Below are positions 12,145 to 43,719 of a DNA stretch of 43,719 nt, piece after piece; the stretch's first letter is position 1; each line of letters starts with the position of its first letter. The notes beneath the pieces were generated by a model. The model was not told the DNA's origin. It saw nothing but the letters and a program-made list of their open reading frames with translations, and did no database searches. The DNA is from a virus. Lineage: Duplodnaviria; Heunggongvirae; Uroviricota; Caudoviricetes. Location: the IMG/VR virus record IMGVR_UViG_2660238269_000008; one strand, given 5' to 3'. The translations under genes were made by a program, and so were the position numbers.

Positions 12145-12435
12145 CCTGGTCTGAAGCATTCCACAACGGTAGGAATCGCACTGGCGGTGGCGCTGGTGGT
12201 GTATTCGATTTGCCGCTGGGGATAAAAACGGTTTGCGGGAAAAGGAGAGTTAAGTAGAATTGCTGCGGGTGCTTGAGGCTGTTTGCCTCGGGCATGCCGC
12301 CGTAAGGCAGACAGAGAAAAGCCCCAGTTAACATTACGCGTCTTGCAGGACGCTTAACATTAATCTGAGGCCCAATCTATGCTTCACAAACGTAGGTTAG
12401 CCTCTTACGTGCCGAAAGGCAAGGAGAAGCAGGCT

Positions 12436-12591
12436 ATGAAGCAGCAAAAGGCGATGTTAATCGCCCTGATCGTCATCTGTTTAACCGTCATAGTGACGGC
12501 ACTGGTAACGAGGAAAGACCTCTGCGAGGTACGAATCCGAACCGGCCAGACGGAGGTTGCTGTCTTCGTAGACTACGAATCTGAGAAGTAA
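12436..12591 (+). CDS. hok: Hok/Gef-family type I toxin (HokD/RelF-like)
   Basis: MKQQKAMLIALIVICLTVIVTALVTRKDLCEVRIRTGQTEVAVFVDYESEK is near-identical to HokD/RelF as recalled; long structured leader upstream and hairpins downstream. Confidence 0.9.
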   Translation: MKQQKAMLIALIVICLTVIVTALVTRKDLCEVRIRTGQTEVAVFVDYESEK

Positions 12592-18054: not shown

Positions 18055-18130
18055 GGCCCTTTAGCTCAGTGGTGAGAGCGAGCGACTCATAATCGCCAGG
18101 TCGCTGGTTCAAATCCAGCAAGGGCCACCA
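18055..18130 (+). tRNA. ileZ: tRNA with CAU anticodon (Ile2, lysidine type; ileZ-like)
   Basis: Hand-folded cloverleaf: acceptor GGCCCTT/AAGGGCC, loop CTCATAA, T-loop TTCAAAT, 3' CCA; closely resembles E. coli ileX as recalled. Confidence 0.85.
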
Positions 18131-18139
18131 TATCACATA

Positions 18140-18216
18140 CCGCCATTAGCTCATCGGGATAGAGCGCCAGCCTTCGAAGCTGGCTGCGCGGGGTTCGAGT
18201 CCTCGATGGCGGTCCA
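18140..18216 (+). tRNA. tRNA-Arg (anticodon read as UCG)
   Basis: Hand-folded cloverleaf: acceptor CCGCCAT/ATGGCGG, anticodon stem CCAGC/GCTGG, loop CTTCGAA, T-loop TTCGAGT, 3' CCA. Confidence 0.75.
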
Positions 18217-18980: not shown

Positions 18981-19240
18981 TCTGTGAAGTGTTAAATCCC
19001 TCACAATTCAGTAAGTTGACAGTTGCCTGTCAGACTGAGCATTTGTTAAAAAAATTTCGCATGGTGAATCCCCCTGTGCGGAGGGGCGACTGGTGAACGG
19101 TATGATCTCTTTGATGATCGTAAGCGAGAATACGCGGGTTTGGTGTCACCGGGCTGAACTCACCGGGAGGCACCCGGCACCATGCTCATGGTGATACAGA
19201 AATGCGGCTTCAGCCCCTCTCCGGAGGGGCTTTCTTATGG
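18981..19240 (+). repeat. Isolated copy (U1) of the ~250-bp hairpin-rich repeat family, ending in an intrinsic terminator
   Basis: Carries the three conserved modules tgttaaat.cctcaca, catggtgaatccccctgtgcggaggggc and ctcaccgggaggcacccggcaccatg, then gcccctctccggaggggc plus T-rich tail. Confidence 0.8.
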
Positions 19241-19384
19241 ACAAAAAAAGCCCGCGCTGGGAGACGCGGGCGGCAAGGAATAAACAATAAAACGTGAAGT
19301 AATACTTCAACTGGCGAATAATACCCGACAGTAATCACTCTGCGCAATAGCGTGGCCTTTTTCGAATTGCGGGCTGTAGTCTCC

Positions 19385-20954: not shown

Positions 20955-21980
20955 ATGGAAATGTTAAATGACTCACAATTCGGTTGATGGGCTATTGTCT
21001 GATCGATGGAAGTCTTGTAAAAACGAGCCAGCATAGTGAATCCCCCTGTGCGGAGGGGCGTCTGACATGGTCTCCATAGCGATGGTCACAATACGCAGAT
21101 TCAGTAGTCAGGCTGAATCTACCGGGAGGCACCCGGCACTATGCTGCTTATGGTGTATACATAGCGATCGGCCCCTCTCCGGAGGGGCTTTTTTTGTGCG
21201 GGAAAAGGCTGTGTTGTTAAGTGTTAAATTCCTCACAGTTCAGATGGTTGATGCTTGCCTGTCTGAGGGGGAGTTGTTAAAAAAGTTCTGCATGGTGAAT
21301 CCCCCTGTGCGGAGGGGCGACTGGTGTGATTTGCATCTTTTCTGTTGTAGGCAATGCAAACGCGGGTTCAGGGACACCAGACTGGACTCACCGGGAGGCA
21401 CCCGGCACCATGTTCATGATGATACAGATACGCAGTGTCAGCCCCTCTCCTGAGGGGCTTTTTTATGCAGGAAAAACGCTGTGTTGTGAAATGTTAAATT
21501 CCTCACAGTTCAGATGGTTGATGCTTGCCTGTCTTACGGGGAGTTGTTAAAAAAGTTCTGCATGGTGAATCCCCCTGAGCGGAGGGGCATATCAGCGCAG
21601 GTGTTTCTACTCTATCCTTTCTGTGCGGGTTCAGGTGCTGATACTGAACTCACCGGGAGGCACCCGGCATCATGCATATGGTTAACAGACACGTAGCGAA
21701 GCCCCTCTCCGGAGGGGCTTTTTTATGCAGGGAAAAGGCTGTGTTGTGAAATGTTAAATTCCTCACAATTCATGAGGTTGATGATTGTCTGATTGATGAG
21801 GAGTTTGTTAAAAAAAACGGGCATGGTGAATCCCCCTGTGCGGAGGGGTGATATCGTATCATTTCCTGTGTGGCCGACTGATATCACGGACATTTGTTCA
21901 CCGGGAGGCACCCGGCACCATGCAGTATACAGAGATTAGGCATACATCCAGGCTCCTCATCGCAGGAGCCTTTTTACATG
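20955..21980 (+). repeat. Tandem array of four ~250-bp units (U2-U5) of the hairpin-rich repeat family; candidate structured ncRNA genes
   Basis: Units at about 20955-21196, 21205-21465, 21481-21726, 21741-21980; same conserved modules in each; variable segments keep self-complementarity; each unit ends in a terminator hairpin plus T-run. Confidence 0.8.
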
Positions 21981-22208
21981 TAAAAAAAAACCGCTCCTGG
22001 GAAGAGCGGTTGGCAAGGAAGCAAGGAATAAATAACAAAACGTGAAGTAATTTATTCAGCACCCTAATAATACCTTAGAGTAATCACCTTGCGCAACTGT
22101 AAGGGCGTATTTCTTTTTTGCGGGCTGTTTTTCTGTGTGACTTTTGTGTTTCCGGAGGTCAGCCCGTGCCTTCTCTGACTCAGAACATTATCCCGGCCGG
22201 GAGGATTC

Positions 22209-41391: not shown

Positions 41392-41968
41392 ACACGGCAG
41401 CGGAGGCCATCCGTGCCCTGTCGCTGCAGGTGCCGGGATTCCGCTGTCAGATGAACGAAGGCTGGTATCAGATACGTATTGCCGGTGAGGATACCGCGCC
41501 GGAGGCGGTGTATGCCCGTCTTCATGAGCCACTGAGCGGGAGGGCCGTGATTCATATTGTACCGAGGCTGGCAGGGCCGGGGGAAATGGTGTTTTTCAGG
41601 TGGTGCTGGGGGCTGCAGCCATCGTGGGTTCTTTCTTCACCGCCGGTGCAACGATGGCGTTGTGGGGCGCAGCCCTGAGTGCCGGAGGGCTGACTGCCAC
41701 CACGATGCTGTTCTCACTGGGTGCCAGCATGATACTGGGTGGTGTGGCTCAGATGCTGGCCCCGAAGGCAAAGACGCCGGAGTACAAAAGTACGGATAAC
41801 GGTAAACAGAACACGTATTTTTCGTCACTGGACAACATGATTGCCCAGGGTAACCCGATGCCGGTGCCTTACGGTGAAATGCTGGTTGGTTCACGACGGA
41901 TATCCCAGGACATCAGCACCCGTGATGAGGGCGGTGACGGGAAAGTGGTGGTTATCGGGCGGGGATGA
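41289..41968 (+). pseudogene. I: Tail tip assembly protein I, frameshifted in a G5 run (about 41575-41590)
   Basis: ORFs 41289..41678 and 41600..41968 match the N- and C-terminal halves of lambda I in different frames; the switch maps to ccggggg. Confidence 0.75.
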
Positions 41969-42013
41969 AAATAAAAAAATCCCGCAGAGTTAGCGGAGCT
42001 GCGGGAGAGAACG

Positions 42014-42133
42014 ATGAAGATTAACTTTATGGAGTTATTTTTCAGGCATCAAAAAAGTAACGCAGCGTCATTATTGCGGCTACAGGCAATTGCCGGAAAT
42101 GTGAAGAATTTCAGAAATTTTATTCTGTCATGA
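42014..42133 (+). CDS. Candidate small ORF (39 aa) within a 240-bp insert between I and J
   Basis: ATG with GGGAGAG 5 nt upstream; flanked by hairpins at 41979..42004 and 42137..42160 (the latter followed by a T-rich run). Confidence 0.25.
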   Translation: MKINFMELFFRHQKSNAASLLRLQAIAGNVKNFRNFILS

Positions 42134-42208
42134 CACAGGCACCCTCCGGGGTGCCTGTTGTTTTCTGGCATAAACAGATTCAGACATCAGACAGGAGAGG
42201 GGGACAGA

Positions 42209-43719
42209 GTGGGTAAAGGGGGCGGCAAGGGGCACACACCGCGTGAGGCGAAGGACAATCTCAAATCAACGCAGATGATGAGCGTGATTGATGCCATTGG
42301 TGAGGGACCGGTGGAAGGTCCGGTGAAGGGACTGCAGAGTATTCTGGTGAACAAAACCCGCTGACGGACACGGACGGTAATCCCGTGATACACGGTGTGA
42401 CCGCCGTCTGGCGTGCCGGGGAGCAGGAGCAGACACCGCCGGAAGGCTTTGAGTCCTCCGGGCGGAAACCGCACTGGGCGTGGAGGTGACGAAGGCAAAG
42501 CCGGTGACGCGCACCATCACGTCAGCGAACATTGACCGTCTGCGGGTCACCTTCGGGGTGCAGTCACTGGTGGAGACCACCTCAAAGGGTGACCGTAATC
42601 CCTCTTCTGTCCGGCTGCTGATTCAGCTTGAGCGTAACGGTAACTGGGTGACGGAGAAGGATATCACCATTAACGGCAAGACCACCTCGCAGTACCTGAC
42701 GTCGGTGATTCTGAATAATCTCCCTGAGCGCCCCTTTAACATCCGGATGGTCAGGGAGACGGCGGACAGCACCACGGACCAGCTGCAGAACAGAACGCTG
42801 TGGTCGTCATACACCGAAATCATCGATGTGAAACAGTGCTACCCGAACACGGCCATTGTGGGGCTGCAGGTGGATGCGGAGCAGTTTGGTGGCCAGCAGC
42901 TGACGGTGAACTACCATATTCGTGGTCGCATCATTCAGGTGCCGTCAAACTATGACCCGGAAAAACGCACCTACAGCGGTATCTGGGACGGCAGCCTGAA
43001 ACCGGCATACAGCAATAACCCGGCCTGGTGCCTGTGGGACATGCTGACCCACCCGCGCTACGGCATGGGAAAACGCCTGGGGGCGGCGGATGTGGACAAG
43101 TGGGCTCTGTATGCCATCGGGCAGTACTGCGACCAGACGGTCCCGGATGGTTTCGGGGCACAGAGCCGCGGATGACCTTTAATGCGTACCTGTCACAGCA
43201 GCGTAAGGTGTGGGATGTCCTGGGGGATTTCTGCTCGGCGATGCGCTGTATGCCGGTATGGAACGGCCAGACGCTGACGTTCGTTCAGGACCGCCCGTCG
43301 GATGTGGTGTGGCCGTACACCAACAGCGATGTGGTGGTGGATGATAACGGCGTGGGGTTCCGCTACAGCTTCAGTGCCCTGAAGGACCGGCACACGGCGG
43401 TGGAGGTGAATTACACCGACCCGCAGAACGGCTGGCAGACTTCCACGGAACTGGTGGAAGACCGGACGCCATCCTGCGCTACGGGCGCAATCTGCTGAAG
43501 ATGGATGCGTTTGGCTGTACCAGCCGCGGTCAGGCCCACCGTGCCGGACTGTGGGTGATAAAGACCGAACTGCTGGAAACGCAGACGGTGGATTTCACGC
43601 TCGGGTCACAGGGGCTGCGGCACACGCCCGGTGACATCATTGAAATCTGTGATAACGACTATGCCGGGACCCTGACCGGCGACGTATCCTGTCCATCGAT
43701 GCCGCCAGCCGCACACTGA
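42209..43719 (+). pseudogene. J: Central tail fibre / host-specificity protein J, 5' part, with at least four frameshifts; continues beyond the window
   Basis: GTG start (VGKGGGKGHTPREAKDNLKSTQ as lambda J); lambda-J-like sequence jumps frame near 42360, 42460, 43157 and 43462; four successive ORFs in the track. Confidence 0.8.

What the first reader, a model, noticed from the sequence alone, without database searches (positions are those of the whole stretch)
41969..42208. 240-bp insert between tail genes I and J with a small RBS-preceded ORF flanked by hairpins
In lambda, I and J abut. Here an AT-rich spacer contains hairpin CCCGCAG...CTGCGGG (41979..42004), a 39-aa ORF (MKINFMELFFRHQKSNAASLLRLQAIAGNVKNFRNFILS) with GGGAGAG upstream, and a terminator-like hairpin CAGGCACCC..GGGTGCCTG plus T-run (42137..42165). 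It may be a mini-cassette or a remnant of a moron.
Basis: seen in the sequence. Interest (0 to 1): 0.35.

Follow-up and report, generated by a model that had tools for sequence, protein, structure and literature searches.

The report
Known prophage small RNA gene, not an ORF

Summary
The described features are all present: a 240-bp I-J spacer (41969-42208), two hairpins and a 39-codon ORF. The coding interpretation fails. Among 80 distinct homologous spacers the ORF's start codon is ACG or ACA in 31, and length and frame are not kept.

The spacer instead carries a compact gene on the minus strand, antisense to the tail genes. It has a -10 box (42075-42070), a predicted start at 42063, a 91-nt body, and a terminator (42006-41980 plus U7) that ends 5 nt from the I stop codon.

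It differs at 2 of 91 positions from the three identical Sakai copies. Recalibrated coordinates place the Hfq-crosslinked, Northern-confirmed sRNAs EcOnc22/23/24 (~85 nt) on those copies. A covariance model built only from other family members, including PasB of EPEC E2348/69 (83 nt, Hfq-dependent), hits the window at 76.5 bits.

The second hairpin (42135-42158) is a plus-strand terminator-like element upstream of J; lambda has a counterpart there.

Modest new points:
- EcOnc22-24 and PasB are one family.
- An invariant CRP-like box lies upstream of the promoter.
- Some phages stack up to four such cassettes between I and J.

Verdict: already known, function still unknown, low interest.

The parts
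41973..42063 (-). Predicted 91-nt sRNA gene of the PasB / EcOnc22-24 family, from predicted start G at 42063 to the end of the U-tract at 41973
   Evidence: Covariance model R1 was built from 22 family members without the window or Sakai type. It hits exactly 41973-42063 (-) at 76.5 bits, E 3.5e-13, full length. The gene is 89/91 identical to the Sakai Sp15/Sp11/Sp14 copies. It folds at -20.9 kcal/mol, z -3.4. The start is inferred from the -10 box, not mapped.
41973..42006 (-). Intrinsic terminator of the sRNA: 8-bp stem (42006-41999 / 41987-41980), 11-nt loop, U7 tract 41979-41973; ends 5 nt from the I stop codon
   Evidence: The terminator scan calls it on the minus strand and the fold agrees. 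The Northern probe for PasB (AATCCCGCAGTGATCGCGGAGCT) equals the + strand of this hairpin in E2348/69, so the RNA is the minus strand. The loop is hypervariable among homologues.
42014..42036 (-). Most conserved single-stranded part of the sRNA body: AACUCC (42036-42031) and GUUAAUCUUCAU (42025-42014); candidate target-pairing region
   Evidence: Near-invariant columns in alignments of 30 and 56 distinct family members. The seed role is inferred. Zhu et al. 2026 place the proposed PasB seed just upstream of the terminator.
42070..42075 (-). -10 box AATAAT of the sRNA promoter (TATAAT in most homologues); no good -35
   Evidence: This aligns with TATAAT in E2348/69, where the scan finds TTCACA-16-TATAAT with 11/12 matches. 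The window itself gave no promoter call at the scan's threshold.
42100..42115 (.). CRP-like palindrome TGTGA-N6-TCAGA, centred about 44.5 nt upstream of the predicted start; right-hand boundary of the cassette
   Evidence: Both half-sites are intact in all 56 distinct units whose homology reaches this point, while the 6-nt spacer varies. It is the only occurrence in the window, with 0.11 expected. Binding by CRP is an inference, and the spacing is not canonical.
42135..42166 (+). Terminator-like hairpin on the tail-gene strand (10-bp stem, tetraloop, TTGTTTTCT) upstream of J
   Evidence: Terminator scan; -23.1 kcal/mol, z -4.8. One C:G to U:A compensatory change is seen in 15 loci. Wobble intermediates are valid only on the + strand in 8 loci and only on the - strand in 2. 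The T-tract is always on the + side. Lambda has a hairpin at the equivalent place.
42194..42211 (+). Purine-rich Shine-Dalgarno region (GGAGAGGGGGA, 42194-42204) and GTG start codon of J (42209-42211)
   Evidence: Sequence and the VT1-Sakai annotation transferred by alignment.
42014..42133 (+). 39-codon ORF of the finding: judged not to be a gene
   Evidence: Start codon lost in 31 of 80 distinct homologues, with lengths of 6-87 codons. No family match. No sORF is listed at the corresponding Sakai coordinates in the held supplements of Hücker et al. 2017 (weak evidence).

Best explanation
The spacer is a small, self-contained sRNA gene inserted between lambdoid tail genes I and J and transcribed against them.

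Shown or directly read from the sequence:
- On the minus strand there is a -10 box, a 91-nt transcribed region and a strong Rho-independent terminator that stops transcription 5 nt before the I stop codon.
- The sequence belongs to the PasB / EcOnc22-24 family.
- Members of that family are made as ~83-85-nt RNAs in EPEC E2348/69 and EHEC Sakai. They crosslink to Hfq, are lost without Hfq, and appear as the sRNA partner in 37 RIL-seq interactions.

Inferred:
- In a lysogen the RNA is made from its own sigma-70 promoter, possibly under a CRP-like operator. That would fit its higher level in LB than in glucose-containing DMEM.
- It binds Hfq through its U-rich 5' part and terminator tail.
- It pairs in trans with host and prophage mRNAs through the conserved AACUCC...GUUAAUCUUCAU stretch.
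- Being fully complementary to the I-J junction of the late mRNA, it could also act in cis on that transcript.
- During lytic growth, Q-modified polymerase coming from PR' reads through the plus-strand hairpin upstream of J and would run over the sRNA promoter.

The 39-codon ORF and its 'RBS' are accidental read-outs of the complementary strand.
For: (1) Family membership.
- CM R1, built without window-type sequences, hits window 41973-42063 (-) at 76.5 bits. It gives PasB of E2348/69 91.4 bits, the three Sakai copies 72.1 bits and lambda nothing.
- 80 loci that share only the terminator hairpin score at most 35 bits.

(2) PasB.
- Table S6 of Pearl Mizrahi 2021 gives NC_011601.1 minus strand 1466343-1466261, 83 nt, with a probe equal to the + strand of hairpin 1.
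- In that genome I ends at 1466255 and J starts at 1466496, both on the + strand.
- Its level falls in delta-hfq by log2 -6.8 and -2.4, and it has 37 RIL-seq interactions.

(3) EcOnc22/23/24.
- These are Hfq-CRAC peaks on the strand opposite to the tail genes in Sp15, Sp14 and Sp11, with a ~85-nt Northern band that is destabilised in delta-hfq.
- The published coordinates are from the older Sakai record.
- Two calibrations give a shift of +135 to +146 to NC_002695.2: the PR' start 2,926,201 and its 258-nt distance to tR' against L019, and the AgvB Rfam hit.
- That shift puts all three peaks inside the CM hits in the I-J spacers. The window equivalent is about 42050-41979, minus strand.

(4) The Sakai copies differ from the window at 2 of 91 positions.

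(5) Conservation follows the sRNA rather than the ORF.

(6) E2348/69 has a near-consensus promoter at the aligned place.
Against: - No expression data exist for this window itself.
- Its promoter has a 5/6 -10 box and no recognisable -35, and the promoter scan found nothing at its threshold.
- The transcription start is inferred. The published PasB 5' end, taken from read coverage, lies about 15 nt further in.
- There is no covariation support for any structure beyond the terminator. The terminator's invariance is partly forced by the search pattern used to collect homologues.
- The CRP-like box is centred near -44.5, not at the canonical -41.5 or -61.5.
- No target of this family has been validated, so the trans-acting mechanism rests on analogy with other Hfq sRNAs and on RIL-seq counts.
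- Rfam 15 has no model for the family, so there is no curated threshold.
Confidence: 0.85

Rival explanations
1. The spacer encodes a 39-aa protein (a moron gene) translated from the late mRNA, with GGGAGAG as its ribosome-binding site.
For: The ORF is intact in the window and in the Sakai-type copies. ATG is kept in 49 of 80 distinct homologues, and the first ~9 codons are similar at the nucleotide level. One phage record annotates a 32-codon hypothetical protein here.
Against: The start is ACG or ACA in 31 of 80 homologues. Lengths run from 6 to 87 codons, and the frame is shifted by A-run length changes, so nothing beyond ~12 codons is shared. The 'RBS' lies in a stable hairpin stem. There is no PHROG or Pfam match. 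The ORF is not annotated in RefSeq E. coli genomes and is absent from the Sakai intergenic sORF supplements searched. The nucleotide conservation is explained by the antisense sRNA.
Confidence: 0.04
2. The locus is a type I toxin-antitoxin pair: the + strand ORF is a small toxin and the minus-strand RNA, which overlaps its start region by 50 nt, is the antitoxin.
For: The geometry resembles hok/sok-type loci, with the antisense RNA covering the ORF's RBS and first 16 codons. The window carries a sok-like RNA elsewhere, at 12267-12441.
Against: The ORF is not conserved. The peptide is not a hydrophobic membrane helix. No + strand promoter was found for it. PasB behaves in RIL-seq as a trans-acting sRNA with many partners.
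Confidence: 0.03
3. The main job of the RNA is in cis. As a perfect antisense to the I-J junction of the late transcript, it directs cleavage or blocks read-through, setting the I:J ratio or silencing leaky tail-tip expression in lysogens. Trans targets are secondary.
For: The family sits at this one junction and in this one orientation in every locus examined. It terminates exactly at the I stop codon. Its body is hypervariable while its position is fixed. A plus-strand terminator-like hairpin always follows.
Against: Lambda and many lambdoid phages manage without it. The RNA is abundant and Hfq-bound in lysogens, where the late mRNA is essentially absent. Many copies lie in defective prophages whose J is already broken. 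Arrays of up to four different cassettes are hard to explain by a cis role alone.
Confidence: 0.2
4. There is no functional RNA product. The two hairpins are only transcription insulators or mRNA-stabilising ends between I and J, and the rest is neutral filler.
For: Lambda's shorter spacer also has a hairpin. Only the terminator emerges as consensus structure.
Against: Homologous loci give discrete Hfq-dependent RNAs on Northern blots in two pathotypes. The promoter -10, the 5' GCGUUA, the AACUCC and UUAAUCUUC blocks and the upstream box are conserved while neighbouring bases vary.
Confidence: 0.05

Closest known systems
PasB (pathogenicity-associated sRNA B) of EPEC O127:H6 E2348/69, prophage PP6 (Pearl Mizrahi et al. 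2021, PMC8550237; Zhu, Shabalina & Storz 2026 preprint)
   Same: Same junction (6 nt after the I stop, before J), same antisense orientation, same terminator stem and U7 tail. Same 5' GCGUUA, AACUCC and UUrAUCUUCAU blocks, same -10 position and same upstream box. The CM score is 76.5 bits against 91.4 for PasB itself.
   Different: Only about 70% identical over the transcribed part. The window version lacks 6-7 nt in the variable 5' half and has a different terminator loop. It has AATAAT and no -35, where PasB has TTCACA-16-TATAAT. Targets may therefore differ.
EcOnc22 / EcOnc23 / EcOnc24 of EHEC O157:H7 Sakai prophages Sp15 (Stx1 phage), Sp14 and Sp11 (Tree et al. 2014, PMC4104026; listed with unknown targets in Sy & Tree 2021, PMC7873438)
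   Same: Essentially the same gene: 89/91 identical, in a whole spacer that differs at 4 of 240 positions. They were shown to bind Hfq, to run at ~85 nt and to depend on Hfq.
   Different: Two substitutions in the RNA (G/A at +3, A/C at +38). The papers I read do not link EcOnc22-24 to PasB: Table S6 of Pearl Mizrahi lists EHEC homologues for PasA and PasD but none for PasB. The link made here depends on converting old Sakai coordinates.
AgvB, AsxR, StxS, HnrS: other Hfq-binding sRNAs of EHEC lambdoid prophages
   Same: Short, terminator-ended, Hfq-dependent RNAs carried as extra cargo at fixed positions in lambdoid prophages, often in several copies per genome.
   Different: Different loci (PR'/lysis region or downstream of Q, not the tail operon) and unrelated sequence. 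There is no Rfam AgvB or AsxR hit here. Their mechanisms (sponging GcvB or FnrS, repressing hha, activating rpoS) are established, whereas none is for this family.
Lambda I-J intergenic region
   Same: Same gene order, with a terminator-like hairpin followed by T-rich sequence shortly before the J ribosome-binding site.
   Different: Lambda's spacer is about 60 nt and has no sRNA cassette. CM R1 finds nothing in it.

Membership tests
PasB / EcOnc22-24 prophage sRNA family | Located in the spacer between lambdoid tail genes I and J, starting a few nt from the I stop codon | tested here: met
   Window terminator tail ends at 41973 and the I stop at 41968. PasB ends at 1466261 and I at 1466255. 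The Sakai CM hits lie inside the three I-J spacers.
PasB / EcOnc22-24 prophage sRNA family | Encoded on the strand opposite to the tail genes | tested here: met
   The U-tract follows the hairpin only on the minus strand. The CM hit is on the minus strand. PasB is listed as '-' with I and J '+', and the probe equals the + strand. EcOnc22-24 are listed '+' with tail genes '-'.
PasB / EcOnc22-24 prophage sRNA family | Sequence and structure similarity to described members | tested here: met
   76.5 bits, E 3.5e-13, full-length hit with a model that excludes window-type sequences. 89/91 identity to the Sakai copies. Hairpin-only controls score at most 35 bits.
PasB / EcOnc22-24 prophage sRNA family | Rho-independent terminator with a long U tail (Hfq-binding module) | tested here: met
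   8-bp stem plus U7.
PasB / EcOnc22-24 prophage sRNA family | Own promoter directly upstream | tested here: inconclusive
   AATAAT aligns with the TATAAT of E2348/69, which scores 11/12 with its -35. The window has no acceptable -35, and the scan reports no promoter.
PasB / EcOnc22-24 prophage sRNA family | Discrete ~83-85-nt transcript that binds Hfq and is destabilised without it | not testable with these tools
   Shown for the E2348/69 and Sakai homologues only.
Protein-coding moron / small protein gene | Open reading frame with start, frame and length conserved among homologues | tested here: not met
   Start lost in 31 of 80 distinct homologues, with lengths of 6-87 codons. No PHROG or Pfam match.
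Type I toxin-antitoxin | Conserved small hydrophobic toxin ORF overlapped by an antisense RNA | tested here: not met
   The overlap exists, but the ORF is not conserved and the peptide is not hydrophobic.
AgvB / AsxR anti-sRNAs and other Rfam sRNA families | Match to the Rfam covariance model | tested here: not met
   No sRNA family match at E <= 1 in 41700-42500. The whole-window gathering scan finds only STnc100, sok and tRNAs elsewhere.
Intrinsic terminator (hairpin 2, + strand) | G+C-rich stem-loop followed at once by a U-rich tract on the transcribed strand | tested here: met
   10-bp stem, tetraloop, TTGTTTTCT; -23.1 kcal/mol; a compensatory change and a T-tract conserved on the + side. 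Termination efficiency and read-through by Q-modified polymerase were not tested.
CRP-dependent promoter | TGTGA-N6-TCACA site centred at -41.5 (class II) or -61.5 and its helical repeats (class I) | tested here: inconclusive
   9 of 10 half-site bases match. The half-sites are invariant and the spacer varies in 56 distinct units. The centre is about -44.5 from the predicted start, which fits neither class.

The most novel reading that the evidence does not exclude
The I-J junction of lambdoid phages may be a dedicated landing site for interchangeable sRNA cassettes. Each would comprise the same CRP-like operator, a -10 box, a conserved 5' GCGUUA, a hypervariable body and a terminator.

The cassettes can be stacked (four in IMGVR_UViG_2728369607_000007), so a prophage carries a nutrient-responsive, diversifiable set of Hfq sRNAs. 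These could also act in cis on tail-tip gene expression.

The arrays and the shared box are shown here. Control by CRP, functional diversification of the bodies and any cis effect are not.
Probability: 0.2. Interest if true: 0.5.

Novelty: already known. Interest (0 to 1): 0.2.

Why it matters
The result removes a false small-protein candidate. It also shows that this spacer is a regulatory RNA gene carried by about 15% of complete E. coli genomes, usually in several copies.

For annotation, the family has no Rfam model, so it goes unmarked in genome records. The ORF is occasionally annotated as a hypothetical protein.

For the field, the useful by-products are small:
- EcOnc22-24 of EHEC and PasB of EPEC are the same family.
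- The published Sakai coordinates need a shift of about +135 to +146 nt before they fall on the gene in the current record.
- A conserved CRP-like box gives a testable idea for the RNA's regulation.

The RNA's targets and role remain unknown.

Tried and rejected
1. AgvB/AsxR. My first recollection was that AgvB lies between I and J. Tree et al. place it at the PR' moron site, and Rfam finds no AgvB or AsxR here.

2. HnrS (EcOnc10-12) is a different 66-nt sRNA in other prophages.

3. Taking the Table S2 coordinates at face value put EcOnc22 on hairpin 2. Two calibrations show that the table uses the older Sakai record. An early estimate of +123 to +130 was replaced by +135 to +146 after reading the PR' start position in Sy et al.

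These loci served only as negative controls for the CM.

5. RNAalifold found no conserved structure beyond the terminator. A possible 5' stem between columns 7-10 and 50-54 of the alignment was seen by eye but is not supported.

6. Linkers between stacked cassettes looked like degenerate copies of the I 3' end, but the alignment scores do not exceed shuffles.

7. A + strand promoter for the ORF or for J inside the spacer was not found.

8. Supplements: Hücker 2017 has nothing at the expected coordinates, and no supplementary files are held for Sy 2020.

Full report
**What is there**

The window ends in a lambdoid tail module (H, M, L, K, I, J). Gene I stops at 41968 and J starts with GTG at 42209, leaving the 240-bp spacer described.

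- Hairpin 1 is at 41981-42005.
- The 39-codon ORF is at 42014-42133.
- Hairpin 2 is at 42136-42157, followed by TTGTTTTCT.

All three are real and fold better than shuffled controls.

Two details were missed or misstated. Hairpin 1 is followed by seven U on the minus strand, so the scan calls it a minus-strand terminator. Lambda's I and J are 60 nt apart rather than abutting, and lambda's spacer has its own hairpin.

**How common it is**

The spacer is not private to this window. Megablast finds it in 96 phage records, almost all Stx-converting or related lambdoid phages. It also finds it in 802 of 5426 complete E. coli genomes, with a median of three copies per positive genome. Blastn extends this to 147 phage records at 74-98% identity.

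I fetched a graded series of these loci and about 120 viral contigs that share hairpin 1. This gave 94 distinct 340-nt sequences. Of these, 79 retain the family's full promoter-to-terminator homology; with the window that makes the 80 sequences analysed.

**The ORF does not survive comparison**

- At the position of the window's ATG, the 80 distinct homologues have ATG 49 times, ACG 26 times and ACA 5 times.
- Reading on from there gives 6 to 87 codons.
- An A-run of variable length shifts the frame after about 12 codons, so no C-terminal sequence is shared.
- The peptide matches no PHROG or Pfam family.
- It is not annotated in the RefSeq genomes inspected.
- Nothing is listed at the corresponding Sakai coordinates in the held supplements of a Ribo-seq study of Sakai intergenic small genes (weak evidence, since repeated prophage DNA is often excluded).
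- The supposed ribosome-binding site is the 3' arm of hairpin 1.

**What the conservation does follow**

Read on the minus strand, the alignment of 56 distinct units shows an ordered gene:

1. An invariant TCTGA-N6-TCACA box.
2. A variable stretch of about 24 nt.
3. A -10 hexamer, which is TATAAT in most units and AATAAT in the window.
4. A conserved GCGUUA 7 nt further on.
5. A U-run.
6. A hypervariable segment.
7. The conserved blocks AACUCC and GUUAAUCUUCAU. The latter is the reverse complement of the ORF's 'ATGAAGATTAAC'.
8. The terminator, which has a hypervariable loop.
9. A U7 tail.

In window coordinates:

| Feature | Coordinates |
|---|---|
| CRP-like box | 42115-42100 |
| -10 box | 42075-42070 |
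| Predicted start | 42063 |
| Terminator | 42006-41980 |
| U tail | 41979-41973 |

The predicted RNA is 91 nt and folds at -20.9 kcal/mol, z -3.4.

**Identification**

Two papers describe this gene.

*PasB.* Pearl Mizrahi et al. (2021) found PasB in EPEC E2348/69 by RIL-seq. Their Table S6 places it on the minus strand of NC_011601.1 at 1466343-1466261. It is 83 nt long, lies in prophage PP6 and was detected with the Northern probe AATCCCGCAGTGATCGCGGAGCT. In that genome I ends at 1466255 and J starts at 1466496, both on the plus strand. The probe equals the plus strand of hairpin 1, so the RNA is the minus strand. PasB falls by log2 6.8 and 2.4 in a delta-hfq strain. It has 37 RIL-seq interactions, almost always as the second (sRNA) partner.

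*EcOnc22, 23 and 24.* Tree et al. (2014) list these as homologous Hfq-CRAC peaks in Sakai prophages Sp15, Sp14 and Sp11, on the strand opposite to the tail genes. They report a ~85-nt Northern band that is destabilised without Hfq. A 2021 review still lists their targets as unknown.

*Coordinate conversion.* Taken at face value in the current Sakai record, the published peaks fall in the three I-J spacers but over hairpin 2. The table uses the older record. Two calibrations give the shift:

- The Rfam AgvB hit lies 137-146 nt above the published AgvB1 peak.
- Sy et al. give the Stx1-phage PR' start at 2,926,201, 258 nt from tR'. This corresponds to 2,926,336 in the current record, a shift of about +135.

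With +135 to +146, all three peaks fall inside the minus-strand gene. The window equivalent is about 42050-41979.

*Similarity to the window.* The three Sakai spacers are identical to each other. They differ from the window at 4 of 240 positions, 2 of them within the 91-nt RNA.

**Formal membership test**

I built a covariance model from 22 distinct family members, leaving out the window and all Sakai-type sequences.

| Target | Score |
|---|---|
| Window 41973-42063, minus strand | 76.5 bits (E 3.5e-13), end to end |
| PasB of E2348/69 | 91.4 bits |
| Three Sakai copies | 72.1 bits |
| Lambda | no hit |

Eighty loci from unrelated bacteria that share the exact terminator hairpin score no more than 35 bits. 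Rfam 15 has no model for this family.

**How it probably works**

*Shown for homologues.* They give a discrete, abundant, Hfq-bound and Hfq-dependent RNA with many mRNA partners.

*Inferred for this copy.*

- It is transcribed in the lysogen from its own promoter and terminated just before I.
- It pairs in trans through the conserved single-stranded blocks. AACUCCUU-type sequences are complementary to Shine-Dalgarno regions.
- The upstream box matches the CRP consensus at 9 of 10 half-site positions and is the only such site in the window, with 0.11 expected by chance.
- The box's half-sites never vary while its spacer does.
- PasB is higher in LB than in glucose-containing DMEM, which would fit CRP activation.
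- The centre of the box lies near -44.5 from the predicted start, which is not a canonical CRP position. I therefore hold this at about 0.3.
- The RNA is fully complementary to the I-J junction of the late transcript, so a cis effect on tail-tip expression is possible (about 0.2).

**Hairpin 2**

This is a separate element on the tail-gene strand.

- Its T-tract is always on the plus side.
- One stem pair shows a C:G to U:A exchange in 15 loci.
- Wobble intermediates are valid only on the plus strand in 8 loci and only on the minus strand in 2.
- Other family members replace it with a different hairpin at the same place.
- Lambda has its own.

The simplest reading is an ancestral terminator-like structure ahead of J. 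It would stop unmodified polymerase and be read through by Q-modified polymerase. The sRNA cassette sits between the I stop codon and this structure.

**Extra observations**

- In some viral contigs the cassette is repeated between I and J. L063 and L068 have two or three units.
- L073 has four units. Each has its own box, -10, GUUAC start and terminator, and one has a different body and terminator.
- In another group the RNA body and terminator are present, but homology stops at the transcription start, so the promoter has been replaced.

**Verdict**

The element is an already described prophage sRNA gene whose function is still unknown. I did not see the equation of EcOnc22-24 with PasB, the box or the arrays stated in the papers read. 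They are incremental.

Noticed in passing
window 19030-19242 and 21002-21981 (+): There are five matches to the prophage sRNA STnc100 (119-172 bits), four of them head to tail within 1 kb. A weak R1 model hit (15 bits, E 0.65) lies on the opposite strand directly after the first copy, at 19243-19326.
   Followed up: no
window 12267-12441 (+); 18055-18213 (+): A sok-type antitoxin RNA (115.8 bits) suggests a hok/sok-like locus in this prophage. Two adjacent tRNA genes are also present.
   Followed up: no
window about 41574 (gene I); 42357, 42460, 43155, 43462, 43681 (gene J): Compared with the near-identical prophage in E. coli 2015C-3121 (CP027340), the window has single-base deletions, apparently all in G or C runs. 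They break I and the 5' part of J into several frames. The pattern looks like homopolymer sequencing error, but decay of a defective prophage is also possible. J is annotated as frameshifted in 2015C-3121 and truncated in VT1-Sakai too.
   Followed up: partly
L073 316-1231 (IMGVR_UViG_2728369607_000007); also L063 and L068: Up to four tandem antisense sRNA cassettes lie between I and J. Each has the TGTGA-N6-TCAGA box, a -10 box, a GUUAC start and its own terminator. The third unit of L073 has a different body and terminator (AAAAAATCTCCCGTAAT...GACGGGAGA).
   Followed up: partly
L020, L079, L075, L100 and similar viral contigs: These are PasB-like genes in which homology stops exactly at the predicted transcription start (…ACATTAAC|TCAGAGAGGGAGG…). 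The body and terminator are kept but the native promoter and box are replaced by unrelated sequence.
   Followed up: no
window 42181-42194; L009 (phage 2851) spacer: The heptad CAGACAT just upstream of the J ribosome-binding site varies in copy number: two imperfect copies in the window and up to four in phage 2851 and some viral contigs.
   Followed up: no
L013 (PPompW_699) 760-940 and 18 other distinct sequences: An alternative J-proximal module of about 180 bp replaces hairpin 2. It carries a two-way terminator-like hairpin, AAAACCCCGGTATC...GATACCGGGGTTT, and may hold another small antisense unit.
   Followed up: no
Sakai NC_002695.2 versus coordinates in Tree et al. 2014 and Sy et al. 2020: The published EcOnc and PR' coordinates refer to the earlier Sakai record. 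They lie about 135-146 nt below the current RefSeq coordinates in the 1.9-2.9 Mb region. Used uncorrected, they put several sRNAs on the wrong feature.
   Followed up: yes
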